DNA of 64,000 bases, taken from assembly GCA_024614665.1 (NCBI GenBank), contig GCA_024614665.1_4861.1. One strand, written 5' to 3'. This document shows positions 4,065 through 46,420 of this stretch, piece by piece. The number at the start of each line of letters is the position of its first letter. Positions within the stretch are counted from its first letter, which is position 1. Source of the DNA: a phage. The position numbers were made by a program, and so were the translations under genes. A model generated the notes under the pieces. It saw only the letters and a program-made list of their open reading frames with translations. It had not been told where the DNA came from and did not search any database.

Positions 4065-4544
4065 TCATTGCACAAGGCAACTACTTCTGTGCCGTTCGTA
4101 GGCACGATTAAAAGACACTCTGTCTTCGCGATAGCCGCGAATGAGAGACTTAATCTGTCGTGACAAATCACGACTAATGTCTTGAGGGCTACGAGAACCA
4201 GGGTCGAGATATATCCCAGTGGGTATATCATGAAGAGTGGGGCGAATAAACTCTTCACAAAGCGGTGCGGCCATCGGGGTGCGCCACCCCTTAGCTTCTG
4301 CGTAATTGTTCAACGACTTAGCGTACAGATAAACGTAATAAGCATAAGCGTTCACATCCGCAACAAACATTTTCCCTGCCAGCTTTTTCGCCTCAGGACT
4401 GTTCCCACCGACATAAACTGGTGGGTGTTCTAAAGGACGAAAAGGCCAATCTCCGGTTGAGGAGTAATCTGGGTCTACGTGACGGATGACCCCAGGGCAT
4501 CCTGTCAACAATAGCACCAATATCGCCGCCAAAAATAACTTCAT
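4065..4544 (-). CDS. lipoprotein (possible o-spanin or exclusion lipoprotein)
   Basis: N-terminal MKLFLAAILVLLLTGC with lipobox LTGC; starts 10 nt after the preceding membrane-protein gene. Confidence 0.55.
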   Translation of the reverse strand: MKLFLAAILVLLLTGCPGVIRHVDPDYSSTGDWPFRPLEHPPVYVGGNSPEAKKLAGKMFVADVNAYAYYVYLYAKSLNNYAEAKGWRTPMAAPLCEEFIRPTLHDIPTGIYLDPGSRSPQDISRDLSRQIKSLIRGYREDRVSFNRAYERHRSSCLVQ

Positions 4545-8351: not shown

Positions 8352-8618
8352 CTAGTTACGGTCGGAATTAAAGACGTGCCAGGTACTACGCCAGCGAAAG
8401 AATCGGGTCATGAAACCACGCACGTGGTAGCCTGAGAACAACATCCAGATCGTGAGAAAAAGCTGCGCCCATGGAGTGGTGAGTTCCATCAAATGTGCGA
8501 CTATCGCACCAACTATCAACATTACCGTGGAGAATAACAAACCATACATCATCGGAATGTTGTGGCTATAGTGTTTCTCCATCCAGTAGAGAAAATTTAT
8601 TAAACGTTTCACGAACAC
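8352..8618 (-). CDS. small membrane protein (2 predicted TM segments), start uncertain
   Basis: hydrophobic stretches LLFSTVMLIVGAIVAHLM and LFLTIWMLFSGY; no convincing RBS for any candidate start. Confidence 0.35.
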   Translation of the reverse strand: MFVKRLINFLYWMEKHYSHNIPMMYGLLFSTVMLIVGAIVAHLMELTTPWAQLFLTIWMLFSGYHVRGFMTRFFRWRSTWHVFNSDRN

Positions 8619-8669: not shown

Positions 8670-9263
8670 TTACGCATCGGCCTCAAAGAACGGCTGGTTT
8701 GGTACCACTGCGTATTCGAGCACGAACAGATGTTCTGGGGCATCTTCTGCTCGCCACAGTTTGTGACACGTTGCCAGTTTTTCCAGGATGGTCAGCCAGC
8801 TGAGTTGGCAAAACGCACGATCGCCGAAGAACAGTTTCTGCAGTGCAATTGACACATCCATATACGCCTGTTTGAAGTCGAGCCCTTTATCGTAACCTGC
8901 CGACTGTCGCCAGGTCAGCACGAAACCTGCTTCGGTTTCGTTAATTGCTGGACGTAAACCACAAATCCACATCAGTGCCAGATTAACGTTCCAGTCGAAT
9001 TCGATACCTTCGTCTTCGTCATCACCAAACGCCGCGTTTAACGCGTCGTAGAAACCGTGGTTCTCTGCGAACCATTCGCCGTACTCAACGTAGACCGGTG
9101 CTTCGACAGCCTCCCCATCGACTTCACCGATAGGGCGCTCTACATAGTTCGGGTTGGTTTGAACGTGTTCCGCACCCGCGCGAATCAGTTCGTAGACATC
9201 TTTGGCGGTGATTTGTGCGGCTGTTTTAAGACCTGGATACCAGGGGCGTGTTACGAGTGTCAA
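8670..9263 (-). CDS. hypothetical protein (197 aa)
   Basis: ORF track; TTG start with AGGAG RBS, overlapping the stop of the upstream gene. Confidence 0.5.
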   Translation of the reverse strand: MTLVTRPWYPGLKTAAQITAKDVYELIRAGAEHVQTNPNYVERPIGEVDGEAVEAPVYVEYGEWFAENHGFYDALNAAFGDDEDEGIEFDWNVNLALMWICGLRPAINETEAGFVLTWRQSAGYDKGLDFKQAYMDVSIALQKLFFGDRAFCQLSWLTILEKLATCHKLWRAEDAPEHLFVLEYAVVPNQPFFEADA

Positions 9264-9982
9264 AGCAGTGCTCCTTTCATGATGGTGTTATTTGCCAGTA
9301 ATGTACCGGCCGCAGGTGATATTTTGGTGTACAGCGTATCCCAGATTTTCTGAAGTTCAGCGACGCGTTGGTCGTGGTCTTCCTTCGCAAAAGCAAGCTG
9401 ACGTGTTTCAGCTTTCGGTGGCGTCATTTTCGCACCGTAGAATGCTGCGTCTTTTCGGTAACTGGCCATCCAGCGTTTCCCGACCGGTGATTTCTTTTTA
9501 ATCATCGCAACAGCAGCACTCTCACCGAAGCGGTAGCCTAATGCGATTTCGGCTGTGCTCGGCTTGCGTTTGAGTTGTTTCGTCAGATGATCCTCGATGT
9601 GTTTCATGTAAACAGCAGCAAGCTGTACAGCATATTTCGGTTTATTAAGGTCTGCGTTCTTTGGGATGTTAAGTTGTTTCCCATACAGACGTATCATGGA
9701 GCGTTTAGTGCCTGTCGTCATTTGGACAACACTACTAGCACTGCTCGATTTATTCTTACCCACGTTTTTATTAAAACGGGATTCACGGTAAATAGTGGTC
9801 GCAAGCATCCCGGCGTGTACACCTTGCTTTTGAGATGCGGAGACGATGAGAGGTTTAATCTCATTGAACTGGTCCTGGATAAGGACAAATTCTTTTTGAT
9901 GTTTGTTACTGGTGGACTGGTAAGAAGCGTTGCTGTTGAATGTGGTCACTGCTACCAGAAGAAATAAAATGGTGCGAAACAT
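9260..9982 (-). CDS. secreted lytic transglycosylase (SLT-domain) protein
   Basis: signal peptide MFRTILFLLVAVTTFNSNASYQ; SLT-like YRESRFN...SSSASSVVQM...AVYM; ATG at 9982 with GGAGA RBS (ORF track extends to 10021). Confidence 0.6.
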   Translation of the reverse strand: MFRTILFLLVAVTTFNSNASYQSTSNKHQKEFVLIQDQFNEIKPLIVSASQKQGVHAGMLATTIYRESRFNKNVGKNKSSSASSVVQMTTGTKRSMIRLYGKQLNIPKNADLNKPKYAVQLAAVYMKHIEDHLTKQLKRKPSTAEIALGYRFGESAAVAMIKKKSPVGKRWMASYRKDAAFYGAKMTPPKAETRQLAFAKEDHDQRVAELQKIWDTLYTKISPAAGTLLANNTIMKGALL

Positions 9983-12645: not shown

Positions 12646-12849
12646 CTATTCACGACTGTCATAAGCCGGGTCCCTTAAACGTGGGGGCTTGCTCCACAGA
12701 TTACCGAAGTAAACCCCTTCTAAGAACACCAAAACAACTAATCCCCAAAAGGCAGGCGTGGCACGAGACAAGAAAATACCCAGCAGCACCGCAGTGTGCA
12801 TTACCACAACTGCCCAAAACTTTAAACGTCGCGGTTTACGTGTTGCCAT
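12646..12849 (-). CDS. small membrane protein
   Basis: MATRKPRRLKFWAVVVMHTAVLLGIFL...; part of a chain of overlapping small hydrophobic ORFs. Confidence 0.3.
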   Translation of the reverse strand: MATRKPRRLKFWAVVVMHTAVLLGIFLSRATPAFWGLVVLVFLEGVYFGNLWSKPPRLRDPAYDSRE

Positions 12850-12936: not shown

Positions 12937-13128
12937 TCATGACCGTTCCCCTACATCTCGCCACTCACAACGTGTGTCGAACAGACGTTCTTTAAGAGCA
13001 GCAGCTAAATAAACAACCGCAGCGATAACCACTACGGTTGCACAAAAGGAGAGGTACAGTACCATCACAACAAACTGAAGGAACTGAAAACCCCACCAAG
13101 CCCATAAGCGCCAACCTTTATGATGCAT
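12937..13128 (-). CDS. small membrane protein (63 aa)
   Basis: ATG with GAAGGGG upstream; WRLWAWWGFQFLQFVVMVLYLSFCATVVVIAAVVYLAAAL; overlaps the end of the Rad50-like gene by 11 nt. Confidence 0.35.
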   Translation of the reverse strand: MHHKGWRLWAWWGFQFLQFVVMVLYLSFCATVVVIAAVVYLAAALKERLFDTRCEWRDVGERS

Positions 13129-16405: not shown

Positions 16406-16906
16406 TTACAGCCCCATATGCATAAGGGAAATGATAGGGACTTTTCGGCCACGTATCATTGCATACGGTTCGTACATTTGTGCGTTAGTTTCGAATAACT
16501 CACAGGCCGGAATACGATCGCCGGTAGAGAGTTGTAAGACTTCGATTTGGTCGCCCCAGAAGTTATTCACTAATACGTGGTCGACAGTGTTGTCTTCACG
16601 ACCTTCAGGGGTTTTGCAATAAGTGGCGGCATCGTACCAACCTTTGCGGTATACTTCATAACCCGCGTGAAGCATCCGGTAGTACGGACGCAGTTGTGGG
16701 GCATTCAACGCAGCATCTAGCCACTCGCTGTGAATGCTGTTAATCAACACGGTCGCTTCTTCTGGCCACTCGCTGCGGTTTAGGGTTAACTCGCCTAACA
16801 GCTTTAACTTCCAGCCAGTGGAAAGAATAGCGCGGGTACGTTCTGGATTGACGTTCATCTGAGTAAAGAAAGTAGAACGAGTATCGTCAAGAATGTTCAT
16901 GTTCAT
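16406..16906 (-). CDS. hypothetical protein (about 166 aa)
   Basis: ORF track 16406..16972; start moved to ATG (MNMNIL...) with AAGGA RBS because upstream codons lie inside a terminator hairpin. Confidence 0.5.
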   Translation of the reverse strand: MNMNILDDTRSTFFTQMNVNPERTRAILSTGWKLKLLGELTLNRSEWPEEATVLINSIHSEWLDAALNAPQLRPYYRMLHAGYEVYRKGWYDAATYCKTPEGREDNTVDHVLVNNFWGDQIEVLQLSTGDRIPACELFETNAQMYEPYAMIRGRKVPIISLMHMGL

Positions 16907-16924
16907 TTGCTTAGTCCTTACGAG

Positions 16925-16977
16925 TAATAGTCGATTAAAAAGGACCCTGCGGCTATGTGTTGGGGATATCACCGCAG
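16925..16977 (-). terminator. intrinsic terminator
   Basis: stem CCCTGCGG / CCGCAGGG with long loop, then T-run on the minus strand, after 17036..17419. Confidence 0.45.
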
Positions 16978-17035
16978 GGCCAAAGTGAGATGGGTCGTCA
17001 TCTCACGTTATAACATCTGTCTGAAAACTTTTCGG

Positions 17036-17419
17036 TTACTGGTCGAGCGCTACTGAACCACGCACCACTCCTTGCTGTTCAATAACCAGGAGGCGTTGTT
17101 TGGTTTTCGTATTGTAAGCGAGCGACGCGCGAAGCGTCGGGTCGCACGTTATTGTCTCTACTGGCACAATCTCTTGTGCCTTTGAGTTCAACAAAAAGTA
17201 GTAACCTGCCGGACAAGTTTCCTCGCCCTTTGCGTGGACCAGGATGTACTCGTCGTGCCGGCTGACTTCTTCACATCTACCATCATCCCCAGTACAGACT
17301 TCGAACGAAGGCGGGTTGTACTGATACGGTGTGCCTGGTAGTAAATCTTCTACGCTAGTTGTAGCTGAAGCAGAAGCGGTAAAGAACACCGCCACGATAA
17401 TACCCATAAATCCACGCAT
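17036..17419 (-). CDS. small secreted protein (signal peptide, 4 Cys)
   Basis: MRGFMGIIVAVFFTASASA / TT cleavage-like site; ORF track. Confidence 0.6.
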   Translation of the reverse strand: MRGFMGIIVAVFFTASASATTSVEDLLPGTPYQYNPPSFEVCTGDDGRCEEVSRHDEYILVHAKGEETCPAGYYFLLNSKAQEIVPVETITCDPTLRASLAYNTKTKQRLLVIEQQGVVRGSVALDQ

Positions 17420-17432
17420 GTTGTTTCCTTAC

Positions 17433-17843
17433 TTAAAAGTCGAGTTTATTGATGCCTACGTTTTTCTTAATCGTAGGGTCATACATGATAACCGTCAGGG
17501 CATTATCACCTGGGTCGCGAGTAAACTCAGCAACGGCTTCACCACTGCAGGCCTGGTTATCATTATAGTTCATGGTTTCGGCTTGCCCGGTTGCCATGTT
17601 AATAACCCCGTATTCCGGGTCGCCACATGCGACGCCGCCCATCGTTTTCACTAACAGGTAACGGTTGTTATCGGACATCGCAACGATCTGGCAGCTACCG
17701 CCTTGTACGTCAGAGTTCTGGCACCAGAACTGGCCGCCGTATTCGTGATCGTTAACAACTTTTGGTAACTCGATACTTCCAGCACGAGCGAAGAAGCTAA
17801 TGGCCAGAGTAGCAAGTAAAACTGGTAATAAAAAATGTTTCAT
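17433..17843 (-). CDS. small secreted protein (signal peptide, Cys-containing)
   Basis: MKHFLLPVLLATLAISFFARA / GS; ORF track. Confidence 0.6.
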   Translation of the reverse strand: MKHFLLPVLLATLAISFFARAGSIELPKVVNDHEYGGQFWCQNSDVQGGSCQIVAMSDNNRYLLVKTMGGVACGDPEYGVINMATGQAETMNYNDNQACSGEAVAEFTRDPGDNALTVIMYDPTIKKNVGINKLDF

Positions 17844-17865
17844 AATAGCACCTCAATTTTTTGAG

Positions 17866-18357
17866 TTATTCTGAATAGTCGATTGTTTTGATAGTTTCCA
17901 TACCGTAGTACATAGCGATGGAGGCCAGAGTTTTGGTATCCGGTCGCTGTACAAAACCGGCCCTGAAATCTTTGCTGCAAATTTTCTCCACTGATAGTTC
18001 ATCACGATTAGGGATAAGCCATAACGCGTCACCGTTGTGACGGTCGACTGCACCCCACCAACCACCTGGGCAATCTTTATCGCCCGGACGGTGTACGATA
18101 GCGACACGTCCGTTGAAGGATATGTCAACTACACGACACTGTTTCTTAAGCAGCTTACGCGCATTGCACCAGAACGGCTTATCATTAAGATTGATGGTGC
18201 GGGTATATGCTGGAATGCTGCCGTTAATACTGCCCTGGAACCCGCTGAATTCGTCAGCGCGTGCCTTAGAAATCCGTAGCCCAACAACAAGTGCCATCAA
18301 CAGCACAGTAAAAAGCACCACTTTGGCCAAGTGGCGATTAACGTTATTGCATTTCAT
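17866..18357 (-). CDS. small exported or membrane-anchored protein
   Basis: ORF track 17866..18402; start moved to MKCNNVNRHLAKVVLFTVLLMALVVGL with GGAG RBS; overlaps upstream gene stop by 14 nt. Confidence 0.5.
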   Translation of the reverse strand: MKCNNVNRHLAKVVLFTVLLMALVVGLRISKARADEFSGFQGSINGSIPAYTRTINLNDKPFWCNARKLLKKQCRVVDISFNGRVAIVHRPGDKDCPGGWWGAVDRHNGDALWLIPNRDELSVEKICSKDFRAGFVQRPDTKTLASIAMYYGMETIKTIDYSE

Positions 18358-18745
18358 TTTTAATATCTCCACGATTAAGGGTGATGCGACCGACGAGCAC
18401 ATCGTTGTGATAAAAACTCACAGCAACCAGATCTGGCAATTCCAACGGCGATACACTGACCGAGGTGACTTTTGGTTGATTGCACGATATGTCGATTAAT
18501 CGCTGATACATTTTCAATTTCTTATCAGCGATAACCAGCCCTGTGCAGTTCTTACCGTCCGTCAGTCTGTAGATTTGTAACTGTTCGACCTCACGCATCA
18601 GTTCCGGTTTTTCATTCGGTGCAATGGCATAATCCGAATCAGCTGATGTGTATTCAGTCACGTCTGGCTTATCGAAAGCATAAGTTGCTGCAATACCACA
18701 TGCGGCCAGAACTACTACTGCTTGTAAGAACTTCTTGATAGTCAT
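18344..18745 (-). CDS. lipoprotein
   Basis: MTIKKFLQAVVVLAACG with lipobox LAAC; ORF track. Confidence 0.6.
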   Translation of the reverse strand: MTIKKFLQAVVVLAACGIAATYAFDKPDVTEYTSADSDYAIAPNEKPELMREVEQLQIYRLTDGKNCTGLVIADKKLKMYQRLIDISCNQPKVTSVSVSPLELPDLVAVSFYHNDVLVGRITLNRGDIKNEMQ

Positions 18746-18767
18746 GTTTTGCTCTATAGTCGATTGG

Positions 18768-46293: not shown

Positions 46294-46420
46294 GGTTGTT
46301 TCCTTATAGTAGGTTTGTGGTGCATACTAAATCGTTCTAAAAAAAATACATAGTGGGCTTAATATGACAGTAAAGTTGACTGTTAAACGAGAAAATTATT
46401 TACCACTGAAAGGATACCTT

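What the first reader, a model, noticed from the sequence alone, without database searches (positions are those of the whole stretch)
17036..18745. Cluster of four consecutive genes for small exported Cys-containing proteins
The ORFs 17036..17419, 17433..17843, 17866..18357 and 18344..18745 each begin with a signal peptide, the last with a lipobox (LAAC). Each contains 2-5 cysteines, consistent with periplasmic disulfide-bonded proteins. They are not obviously paralogous. An early-region cluster of periplasmic proteins suggests envelope remodelling, receptor masking or superinfection exclusion.
Basis: partly seen in the sequence, partly recalled or inferred. Interest (0 to 1): 0.45.

Follow-up and report, generated by a model that had tools for sequence, protein, structure and literature searches.

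The report
Exported paralog array in jumbo phage
Four neighbouring genes of a SPN3US-like giant Salmonella phage are diverged copies of one gene for a small, disulfide-bonded protein exported to the host periplasm; the family is found only in this phage lineage and its role there is unknown.

Summary
Four back-to-back ORFs, all on the minus strand, are the homologues of SPN3US gp183, gp182, gp181 and gp180. Each starts with a signal-peptide-like N-terminus and has 2 or 4 cysteines in the mature part.

Profile-profile E-values are A-B 3e-12, A-C 1e-10, B-C 1e-15 and A-D 6e-7.

- **Family size and range:** about 30 clusters among 1.84 billion representative proteins. It occurs only in ~220-250 kb SPN3US-, Erwinia- and metagenome-derived jumbo phages. 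It was not found in 185,579 bacterial and archaeal genomes.
- **Family-wide features:** all 60 members examined keep a signal peptide, and 59 of 60 have an even number of mature cysteines.
- **Gene order:** D-(insert)-B-A is invariant in 20 of 20 loci.
- **Conserved residues:** across the family alignments (18-19 sequences, four subtypes) only cysteines are invariant, so these look like binders rather than enzymes.
- **Lipobox:** the lipobox of D is specific to the SPN3US type and is not conserved.
- **Ruled out:** spanin, known lysozyme-inhibitor and known exclusion-protein memberships are not supported.

Function (envelope protection or superinfection exclusion) and "early" expression remain untested. 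This is a moderately interesting, uncharacterised family.

The parts
18344..18745 (-). Gene D (SPN3US gp180 homologue), 133 aa. It is the 2-Cys subtype. The signal peptide has a lipobox (LAAC16) and also a downstream SPase I-type site (TYA|F24). Mature Cys are C67 and C88.
   Evidence: ORF. Annotation. phrog_9424. Ortholog alignment. Lipobox rule passes here only. AF2 model shows 7 beta strands. Linked to the A subtype at E=5.6e-7.
17866..18357 (-). Gene C (gp181 homologue), 163 aa. It is a 4-Cys subtype with a long signal peptide of about 34 aa ending ARA|DEF. It overlaps the 3' end of D by 14 nt. It is present only in Seoulvirus and Erskinevirus-type genomes.
   Evidence: phrog_17072. Orthologs P0010, P0059 and P0064 have a conserved AxA|D/N junction. 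B-C hhalign E=1e-15. Distribution.
17433..17843 (-). Gene B (gp182 homologue), 136 aa, 4-Cys subtype (C41, C51, C73, C99). Signal peptide ends ARA|G22.
17036..17419 (-). Gene A (gp183 homologue), 127 aa, 4-Cys subtype (C42, C49, C69, C92). It has the conserved motifs YNPPSF, CPAGYY and TCDP. Signal peptide ends ASA|T20.
   Evidence: phrog_5248. A-type alignment. tblastn finds it in 64 phage records.
18782..18799 (-). Terminator-like hairpin (GGCTACCC-TCG-GGGTAGCC followed by a T-run) between the gp179 homologue and D. It marks the start of the four-gene unit.
   Evidence: sequence.
16937..16979 (-). Hairpin (CCCTGCGG...19-nt loop...CCGCAGGG) followed by TCCTTTTT, located after gene A. It is a probable terminator closing the unit. 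The stem end and T-run are conserved in relatives.
   Evidence: Read directly from the sequence. The conserved '...cagggyccttttt' sits upstream of the gp184 homologue in all six phages compared (window plus five relatives). It was not picked up by the scanner because its loop exceeds 8 nt.
18756..18765 (-). AATCGACTAT motif, copy 1, 11 nt upstream of the D start codon. It may be a local promoter or operator.
   Evidence: Related motifs precede D in pEa_SNUABM_29 and Asesino.
17875..17884 (-). AATCGACTAT motif, copy 2, 32 nt upstream of the B start codon and inside the 3' end of C.
16927..16936 (-). AATCGACTAT motif, copy 3, immediately after the post-A hairpin and 21 nt upstream of the start of the gp184 homologue.
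   Evidence: ATCGACT(A/T)T is conserved at this position in five of six phages compared (window plus four relatives).

Best explanation
The region is a compact four-gene unit, D-C-B-A on the minus strand, bracketed by terminator-like hairpins. It arose by ancient tandem duplication of one gene.

Each copy encodes a pre-protein with a Sec-type signal peptide. After export, the mature domain of about 100-130 aa folds in the oxidising periplasm. It forms a seven-strand all-beta unit that resembles two beta-propeller blades. It is stapled by one disulfide (Cys3-Cys4, universal) or two (plus Cys1-Cys2 in the A, B and C types).

Only cysteines are invariant across the family alignments (18-19 sequences, four subtypes). 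Each subtype instead keeps its own surface motifs. I therefore read these proteins as non-enzymatic binding modules that act in the envelope of the infected cell.

The invariant D/B/A triad and its fixed gene order suggest three non-redundant partners, either as one complex or acting on three targets. In SPN3US-type phages D may additionally be lipid-anchored (Gly at +2, so outer membrane by the Lol rule).

The most likely role is to protect or condition the infected cell's envelope, for example by blocking superinfection or the action of muralytic or puncturing machinery from outside.

**How far each step is supported**
- Shown: paralogy, phylogenetic restriction, conserved signal peptides, even Cys counts, all-beta models.
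- Inferred (about 0.9): export and disulfide bonding.
- Inferred (about 0.6): non-enzymatic periplasmic binders.
- Guess (about 0.3): a role in envelope protection or exclusion.
For: - **ORFs and annotation:**
- **Paralogy:**
- **Cysteine scaffold:**. Some family members have lost Cys1 and Cys2 together (P0069, P0075, P0077, P0079 and the D type), which implies 1-2 and 3-4 pairing.
- **Export signal and Cys parity:** 60 of 60 members are signal-peptide-like and 59 of 60 have even mature Cys.
- **Models:** both are all-beta with 7 strands.
- **No enzyme or known-family match:** Pfam, NCBIfam, PADLOC and PDB sequence searches.
- **Family size:** about 30 clusters in 1.84e9 representatives.
- **Distribution:** absent from 185,579 prokaryote genomes and present only on jumbo-phage contigs.
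- **Gene order:** D-(x)-B-A is invariant in 20 of 20 loci.
- **Evolutionary rate:** divergence is comparable to or slower than the flanking accessory genes, which indicates maintained function.
- **Virion status:** not named in the main text or in the supplementary text held for the SPN3US essential-gene/virion-proteome paper.
- **Transcription unit:** terminator-like hairpins bracket the unit.
Against: - There is no experimental datum on localisation, timing or phenotype.
- Signal-peptide calls are rule-based, because no SignalP or LipoP was available.
- AF2 models are of moderate confidence (mean pLDDT 64-66; the domain is about 75-85) and were built from shallow alignments.
- There is no similarity to any characterised exclusion or inhibitor protein.
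- Evolutionary rates show no arms-race signature, which fits a housekeeping envelope role as well as an exclusion role.
- The c-region of C's signal peptide carries R/K/R, so C could stay membrane-anchored in this genome.
Confidence: 0.55

Rival explanations
1. Heteromeric propeller. Each paralog supplies two blades, and D+B+A (plus or minus C) assemble in the periplasm into a closed six- or eight-bladed beta-propeller. This would act as a lectin-like or TolB-like scaffold binding an envelope glycan or protein.
For: - Both models match pairs of propeller blades. Hits include fragment-built propellers (PH1500 2m3x; designed Ika4/Ika8), propeller lectins (6gxs, 6gxr) and TolB (1c5k).
- The D/B/A triad always co-occurs in a fixed order.
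- The genes are tightly packed or overlapping, which is consistent with co-translation.
Against: - There is no Pfam PD40, WD40 or Kelch hit.
- Copy number varies from 3 to 5, which is awkward for a closed ring.
- Each model has 7 strands rather than 8.
- No multimer prediction could be run.
Confidence: 0.12
2. Periplasmic inhibitors of peptidoglycan hydrolases. They would play a functional role analogous to Ivy, MliC or T4 Spackle. Targets could be the tail lysin of superinfecting phages, host lytic transglycosylases, or the phage's own exported transglycosylase until lysis.
For: - They are small, disulfide-bonded periplasmic proteins, as Ivy is (by knowledge).
- In some relatives (L014-L017) the slot between D and B holds a different exported protein, and the best Pfam hit of the one scanned (L014) is Ivy (E=0.035, sub-threshold).
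- The phage encodes a transglycosylase with a signal peptide at 9260-9982.
Against: - The Ivy lead is itself not significant, and it concerns an unrelated gene in another phage.
Confidence: 0.15
3. Lysis-cassette components. D (lipoprotein) and C (N-terminal membrane segment) would be an o-spanin/i-spanin pair, or the set would act as periplasmic antiholins or lysis-timing sensors like T4 RI.
For: D has a lipobox and overlaps C by 14 nt, and C has a long hydrophobic N-terminus. Exported small proteins in lytic phages are often lysis proteins.
Against: - The spanin rule is that the o-spanin gene lies within or directly downstream of the i-spanin gene, and that the i-spanin periplasmic domain is alpha-helical coiled coil (PMC12894885). 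Here the lipobox gene is upstream.
- The modelled members B and D are all-beta, and C is a close paralog of B.
- The lipobox is absent in 11 of 12 D-type representatives.
- C is missing in many relatives.
- No holin or endolysin gene is adjacent.
Confidence: 0.06
4. Not exported. On this view the hydrophobic N-termini are artefacts of start-codon choice or are cytoplasmic-membrane anchors without translocation, and the cysteines are incidental.
For: No dedicated predictor or experiment was available. Alternative ATG, GTG or TTG starts exist for C.
Against: - The annotated starts have Shine-Dalgarno sequences.
- The n/h/c architecture with an AxA site is retained in 60 of 60 members despite less than 25% identity.
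- Even Cys parity in 59 of 60 members is expected only in an oxidising compartment.
Confidence: 0.03

Closest known systems
PHROG families phrog_5248, phrog_8968, phrog_17072 and phrog_9424 (all 'unknown function')
   Same: A, B, C and D are full-length, high-scoring members of these four families (E 3e-44 to 4e-85).
   Different: PHROGs treats them as four unrelated families with no function. Here they are shown to be one superfamily with a shared Cys scaffold, signal peptide and fold.
T4 Spackle (gp61.3) and Imm, T5 Llp, and Cor of phi80/N15: phage-encoded periplasmic or lipoprotein superinfection-exclusion factors
   Same: They are small phage-encoded proteins carrying export signals. They act (or are proposed to act) in the envelope of the infected cell, and one member can be a lipoprotein (by knowledge).
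   Different: There is no detectable sequence similarity (Pfam and PHROG functional families). Spackle is helical, whereas these proteins are predicted all-beta. These come as a conserved triad or tetrad of paralogs rather than single genes. No exclusion phenotype is known.
Fragment-built beta-propellers (e.g. PH1500, PDB 2m3x; designed Ika4/Ika8, 6g6q/6g6o) and PD40/TolB-type propeller blades
   Different: The scores are weak. No PD40, WD40 or Kelch sequence repeat was detected. There are 7 strands rather than 8, and oligomerisation is untested.
Ivy / MliC / PliC periplasmic lysozyme inhibitors
   Same: They share the compartment, small size and disulfide stabilisation. An Ivy-like candidate (sub-threshold) sits inside the homologous array of some relatives.
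   Different: The four window proteins have no sequence or structural match to these inhibitors.
Two-component spanins (Rz/Rz1; phiKZ gp141/gp141.1)
   Same: There is an overlapping gene pair, one with a lipobox and the other with an N-terminal hydrophobic segment.
   Different: The gene order is reversed, the fold is beta rather than coiled coil, and the lipobox is not conserved.

Membership tests
Sec/SPase I secretory pre-proteins | Positively charged n-region, uncharged hydrophobic h-region of at least 8-10 residues, and small residues at -3/-1 (AxA) within a few residues after it | tested here: met
   A, B, C and D and all 60 family members pass a rule-based test. The junction to the mature domain is conserved in orthologs.
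Sec/SPase I secretory pre-proteins | Positive call by a trained predictor (SignalP) or experimental cleavage/translocation | not testable with these tools
   No SignalP or LipoP is available. The infection proteomics paper is not held.
Bacterial lipoproteins (SPase II substrates) - gene D only | Lipobox {DERK}6-[LIVMFWSTAG]2-[LIVMFYSTAGCQ]-[AGS]-C with Cys at positions 15-35 and K/R within the first 7 residues | tested here: met
   Window D (…FLQAVVVLAAC16) passes.
Bacterial lipoproteins (SPase II substrates) - gene D only | Lipobox conserved among orthologs, as expected if lipidation is functionally required | tested here: not met
   11 of 12 representative D-type proteins fail. Many lack the Cys or have V/T at -1, and they have an SPase I-type site instead.
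Two-component spanins | The o-spanin (lipoprotein) gene is embedded in, overlapping, or immediately downstream of the i-spanin gene | tested here: not met
   The lipobox gene D lies upstream of C. Criterion taken from PMC12894885.
Two-component spanins | The i-spanin periplasmic domain is dominated by alpha-helix/coiled coil | tested here: not met
   Family models are all-beta. C is a close paralog of B (E=1e-15).
Beta-propeller repeat families (PD40/TolB, WD40, Kelch) | Sequence repeat detectable by the family HMMs | tested here: not met
   No Pfam hit at E<=1 for any of the four proteins.
Beta-propeller repeat families (PD40/TolB, WD40, Kelch) | Four-stranded antiparallel blades that superpose on propeller blades | tested here: inconclusive
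Known periplasmic lysozyme inhibitors (Ivy, MliC/PliC, PliG) | Match to the family HMM or fold | tested here: not met
Known superinfection-exclusion proteins (Imm, Spackle, Llp, Cor) and anti-defence/defence families | Sequence similarity to a characterised member | tested here: not met
   Pfam gives nothing, PHROG hits are all 'unknown function', and PADLOC and NCBIfam give nothing.
The gp180-183 superfamily defined here | Signal peptide plus a mature beta domain of about 100 aa with a Cys3...Cys4 pair (optionally also Cys1-Cys2), encoded in a D-(x)-B-A tandem array upstream of the gp184/gp185/SbcC-like genes | tested here: met
   Synteny.

The most novel reading that the evidence does not exclude
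The conserved D/B/A triad (plus C in SPN3US) consists of two-blade fragments that co-assemble in the periplasm into a heteromeric six- or eight-bladed beta-propeller. This would be a phage-built pseudo-TolB or lectin-like machine that grips an envelope component. It could seal the infected cell against further phage entry or stabilise the envelope during the long jumbo-phage cycle. It would be the first natural heteromeric fragment-assembled propeller, and the first periplasmic machine described for a nucleus-forming phage lineage.
Probability: 0.1. Interest if true: 0.75.

Novelty: new variant of a known kind. Interest (0 to 1): 0.4.

Why it matters
Work on the phiKZ-related jumbo phages, to which SPN3US belongs, has focused on what they do inside the cytoplasm. 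Almost nothing is known about what they do to the host envelope.

This array is conserved (20 of 20 loci) and lineage-restricted, and it has been kept for a long evolutionary time. It therefore marks an unstudied periplasmic activity of the SPN3US and Erwinia jumbo-phage group.

These phages are used or proposed for biocontrol of Salmonella and fire blight. Exclusion or envelope-conditioning functions would affect cocktail design.

On the practical side, the result merges four 'unknown' PHROGs into one family. It also gives clear, inexpensive experiments to run in the existing SPN3US genetic system.

Tried and rejected
1. **Family libraries.** Pfam, NCBIfam and PADLOC scans of the four proteins and three neighbours gave nothing.
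2. **PDB by sequence profile.** The only hits were repeat noise from a designed TIM barrel.
3. **Exhaustive HMMER search.** Five giant hits (P0053, P0054, P0063, P0070, P0073) were checked. They are Ig-repeat surface proteins whose many weak stretches sum to a score, so they were rejected as artefacts.
4. **AFDB fold search.** The library was unavailable, so the viral library was used instead.
5. **First D-versus-ABC profile comparison.** It was not significant with shallow alignments (E=0.21). It improved with richer, signal-peptide-trimmed profiles (4e-4) and was resolved by subtype profiles (A-D 6e-7).
6. **Spanin and antiholin reading.** Rejected on gene order, fold and non-conserved lipobox.
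7. **Ivy lead.** This concerns an unrelated insert gene in L014. It stayed sub-threshold (Pfam E 0.035, PDB E about 1.1) and none of its homologs carries the domain.
8. **Arms-race signature.** The cluster evolves no faster than its flanking genes.
9. **AATCGACTAT as a genome-wide promoter.** Rejected, because only the three local intergenic copies exist in 64 kb.
10. **Literature.** gp180-183 are not discussed in the SPN3US papers held. The infection-proteomics paper is not held. The promoter logos for phiKZ-like phages are given only as figures.
11. **The search for related loci with the whole-family alignment.** It failed because the alignment was too divergent. The A-type alignment worked.
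Full report
**1. What the window is**

The region is about 97% identical to Salmonella phage SPN3US (Seoulvirus, 240 kb) and its close relatives. Using the GenBank numbering, the four ORFs of the finding correspond to SPN3US gp183 (A, 17036-17419), gp182 (B, 17433-17843), gp181 (C, 17866-18357) and gp180 (D, 18344-18745). All are on the minus strand, so they are transcribed in the order D, C, B, A. Every public record calls them 'hypothetical protein'.

**2. Check of the observation**

The ORFs exist as described. The annotated starts have Shine-Dalgarno-like sequences:
- A: AAGGA
- B: GAGGTG
- C: GGAG
- D: weaker, AGAG

The longer ATG available for C (18402) has none.

Each N-terminus has a basic n-region, an uncharged hydrophobic core and an AxA-type site:
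- A: ...TASASA|TTS
- B: ...SFFARA|GSI
- C: ...RISKARA|DEF
- D: ...IAATYA|FDK, with LAAC16 upstream

C's signal is unusually long (about 34 aa) and has R/K/R near the cleavage site. However, orthologs with ordinary signal peptides end at the same AxA|DEF(S/G)G junction (P0010, P0064, pEa_SNUABM_29).

Mature Cys counts are 4, 4, 4 and 2.

SignalP and LipoP were not available, so I applied a rule-based test to every full-length family member I had collected. All 60 are signal-peptide-like. In 59 of 60 the mature part has an even number of Cys (35 members with four, 24 with two). The exception, P0039, has Tyr in place of Cys3. Retention of the n/h/c architecture at under 25% identity, together with even Cys parity, is strong comparative evidence for export into an oxidising compartment.

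Among roughly 61 crude gene calls in the window, only about 8-12 have export-like N-termini. Four in a row is therefore not chance.

**3.

- PHROG cross-hits link A, B and C.
- BLASTP gives B-C 4e-8 and A-C 9e-6.
- All three share the spacing C-x7-10-C-x20-22-C-x23-31-C.
- D lacks the first Cys pair, but its two mature Cys align with Cys3 and Cys4.

Profile-profile comparison of subtype alignments, with signal peptides removed, gave:

| Pair | E-value | Probability |
|---|---|---|
| A-B | 3e-12 | 98% |
| A-C | 1e-10 | 97% |
| B-C | 1e-15 | 99% |
| A-D | 6e-7 | 92% |

B-D and C-D are not significant on their own. Earlier, shallower tests gave 0.21 and 4e-4.

Two-Cys members that otherwise look A-like (P0069, P0075, P0077) bridge the subtypes. 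Because Cys1 and Cys2 are lost together, the disulfides are most simply 1-2 and 3-4. This is an inference.

**4. Distribution and architecture**

- The word-indexed searches of 5.8 billion proteins found only jumbo-phage proteins.
- An exhaustive HMMER pass over 1.84 billion representatives found 36 clusters. Five of these are Ig-repeat artefacts.
- tblastn finds the A type in 64 phage records, all of them Salmonella, Erwinia, Escherichia or Proteus phages of about 240 kb.
- IMG/VR gives 14 loci. Twelve are on 220-250 kb contigs and two are on shorter fragments.
- A scan of 185,579 representative bacterial and archaeal genomes found none.
- The SPN3US CoreGenes supplement lists gp183 as shared with PhiEaH2 and CR5, but gives no phiKZ counterpart.

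The array always sits just upstream of the gp184- and gp185-like genes and the essential SbcC-like gp186. Classifying ORFs with subtype HMMs shows the order D-(insert)-B-A in 20 of 20 loci.

The slot between D and B varies:
- C in Seoulvirus and Erskinevirus;
- nothing in Machinavirus-type genomes;
- a 2-Cys extra paralog in L010;
- an unrelated exported protein in L014-L017.

Wellington has an extra 4-Cys paralog after A.

Amino-acid divergence of D, B and A between genera is similar to or lower than that of the flanking accessory genes, and higher than that of SbcC. The genes are therefore maintained, and they are not evolving unusually fast.

**5. Structure**

AlphaFold2 models of B (14-sequence alignment) and D (6-sequence alignment) have mean pLDDT of 66 and 64.5. 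The N-terminus is disordered, and the mature domain scores about 75-85 and consists of seven beta strands.

- S9-peptidase/PD40 propellers (2gop, 5l8s, 5yzm, 1ve6);
- TolB (1c5k);
- WD40 proteins;
- propeller lectins (6gxs, 6gxr);
- fragment-assembled propellers (2m3x, 6g6q).

Foldseek against viral models returns only the family's own members with significance, followed by non-significant Kelch, WD40 and prolyl-oligopeptidase propellers. There is no Pfam repeat match.

I therefore describe the fold as 'two-blade-like beta meander' with low-to-moderate confidence. Known lysozyme inhibitors and exclusion proteins do not appear in any list.

**6. The lipobox of D**

LAAC16 satisfies a PS51257-style rule, and Gly at +2 would send a lipoprotein to the outer membrane (Lol rule, by knowledge). 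But 11 of 12 representative D-type proteins fail the rule. Several lack the Cys, and others have it in a non-lipobox context such as AVVC or IAVC. All of them have an SPase I-type site a few residues downstream. Lipidation is thus at most a recent, SPN3US-type-specific addition and not a property of the family.

**7. Transcription unit**

A terminator-like hairpin plus T-run lies between the gp179 homologue and D (18799-18782). A second hairpin plus T-run follows A (16979-16937). I read this one by eye because its loop is too long for the scanner; its 3' stem and T-run are conserved in all six phages compared (window plus five relatives).

A 10-mer, AATCGACTAT, occurs exactly three times in the 64-kb window. 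All three copies are on the coding strand: 11 nt before the D start, 32 nt before the B start and 21 nt before the start of the gp184 homologue. Related motifs are conserved at the D and gp184 positions in relatives. It may be a local promoter or operator. It is not a general promoter motif of this genome.

**8. Mechanism**

- **Shown:** one gene family, exported by every comparative criterion, with an even Cys count, all-beta, restricted to one phage lineage, with a fixed triad and gene order. Across the family alignments (18-19 sequences, four subtypes) only Cys are invariant, whereas subtype-specific motifs are strongly conserved. Examples are A: YNPPSF, CPAGYY, TCDP; B: FWCQ, YDPT-KKNVG; D: PADD-YP-APDE, YQRL-DI-C, VGRITL.
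- **Inferred:** these are non-enzymatic binding modules working in the periplasm or at the outer membrane of the infected cell. The triad probably acts together or on three distinct targets.
- **Most likely role (about 0.3):** protecting or conditioning the envelope during the long infection. This covers superinfection exclusion or neutralisation of muralytic or puncturing activities.

Rivals:
- a heteromeric fragment-assembled propeller (about 0.1);
- inhibitors of peptidoglycan hydrolases (about 0.15);
- lysis proteins (about 0.06). These are disfavoured because the spanin criteria from PMC12894885 fail on gene order and fold;
- not exported at all (about 0.03).

**9. Comparison with what is known, and novelty**

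By membership, the proteins belong only to four function-less PHROGs, which this analysis unites. By mode of action, they resemble the general class of phage-encoded periplasmic accessory proteins (Spackle, Imm, Llp, Cor). They share no sequence or fold with any of these, and they differ in being a conserved multi-paralog array.

I rate this as a new variant of a known kind. It is an uncharacterised, lineage-specific exported protein family in a phiKZ-related jumbo-phage group. Interest is moderate (0.4): the family is solid and experimentally tractable, but nothing yet points to a surprising mechanism.

Noticed in passing
window 18756-18765, 17875-17884, 16927-16936 (all minus strand): The 10-mer AATCGACTAT occurs exactly three times in the 64 kb window. 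Each copy is 11-32 nt upstream of a start codon (D, B and the gp184 homologue), and two of them follow terminator-like hairpins. Related motifs are conserved at the same positions in Erwinia-phage relatives. It may be a local promoter or operator and is not a genome-wide motif.
   Followed up: partly
L014:3082-3564 (also L015-L017, the same slot between D and B): In some metagenomic relatives the slot occupied by C holds an unrelated 160-aa exported 4-Cys protein. Its ...ACKSNACG... loop gives Ivy (lysozyme inhibitor) as the top Pfam hit, but below threshold (E 0.035), and PDB Ivy chains at E of about 1. Its homologs are common in E. coli chromosomal islands and plasmids and carry no Ivy annotation.
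   Followed up: partly
window 4065-4544 (-) and 46364-46912 (+; probable start at the internal MKRLF..., about 46421): Two further lipobox-bearing ORFs (…LLLTGC and …NLLAGC) lie elsewhere in the window. They are candidate lipoproteins and possibly o-spanin-like.
   Followed up: no
window 9260-9982 (-): The homologue of the SPN3US 'transglycosylase' begins with a signal-peptide-like N-terminus (MFRTILFLLVAVTTFNSNA|SY). This suggests an exported or SAR-type muralytic enzyme.
   Followed up: no
window 8352-8582, 12646-12849, 12937-13128 (all -): Three small ORFs (63-76 aa) with strong hydrophobic segments. They may be membrane proteins or holin-like candidates.
   Followed up: no
SPN3US ACQ60_gp094 (L001:15357-15566); also L007:138-347: A DUF1471/YdgH-BhsA-like small periplasmic protein gene is conserved a few kb from the array in both SPN3US and a distant 190-kb relative. 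It is another exported accessory protein of this lineage.
   Followed up: no
window 16406-16972 (-): The mechanical ORF for the gp184 homologue starts at a GTG (16972) inside the post-A hairpin. The annotated start, which is preceded by an RBS, is the ATG at about 16906.
   Followed up: partly
GenBank LR5359xx SPFM phage records (hits H23-H30): Several SPFM genome records align to this region in 27-29 short pieces and yield truncated or fused protein fragments (P0017-P0035). This indicates frameshift-rich assemblies rather than real gene variation.
   Followed up: no
P0039 (B-type, metagenomic) and L005:3313-3720, L010:441-800: P0039 has Tyr in place of Cys3 and is the only odd-Cys member. Wellington carries an extra 4-Cys paralog after A, and L010 carries an extra 2-Cys paralog between D and B. 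The array is therefore still gaining and losing copies.
   Followed up: partly
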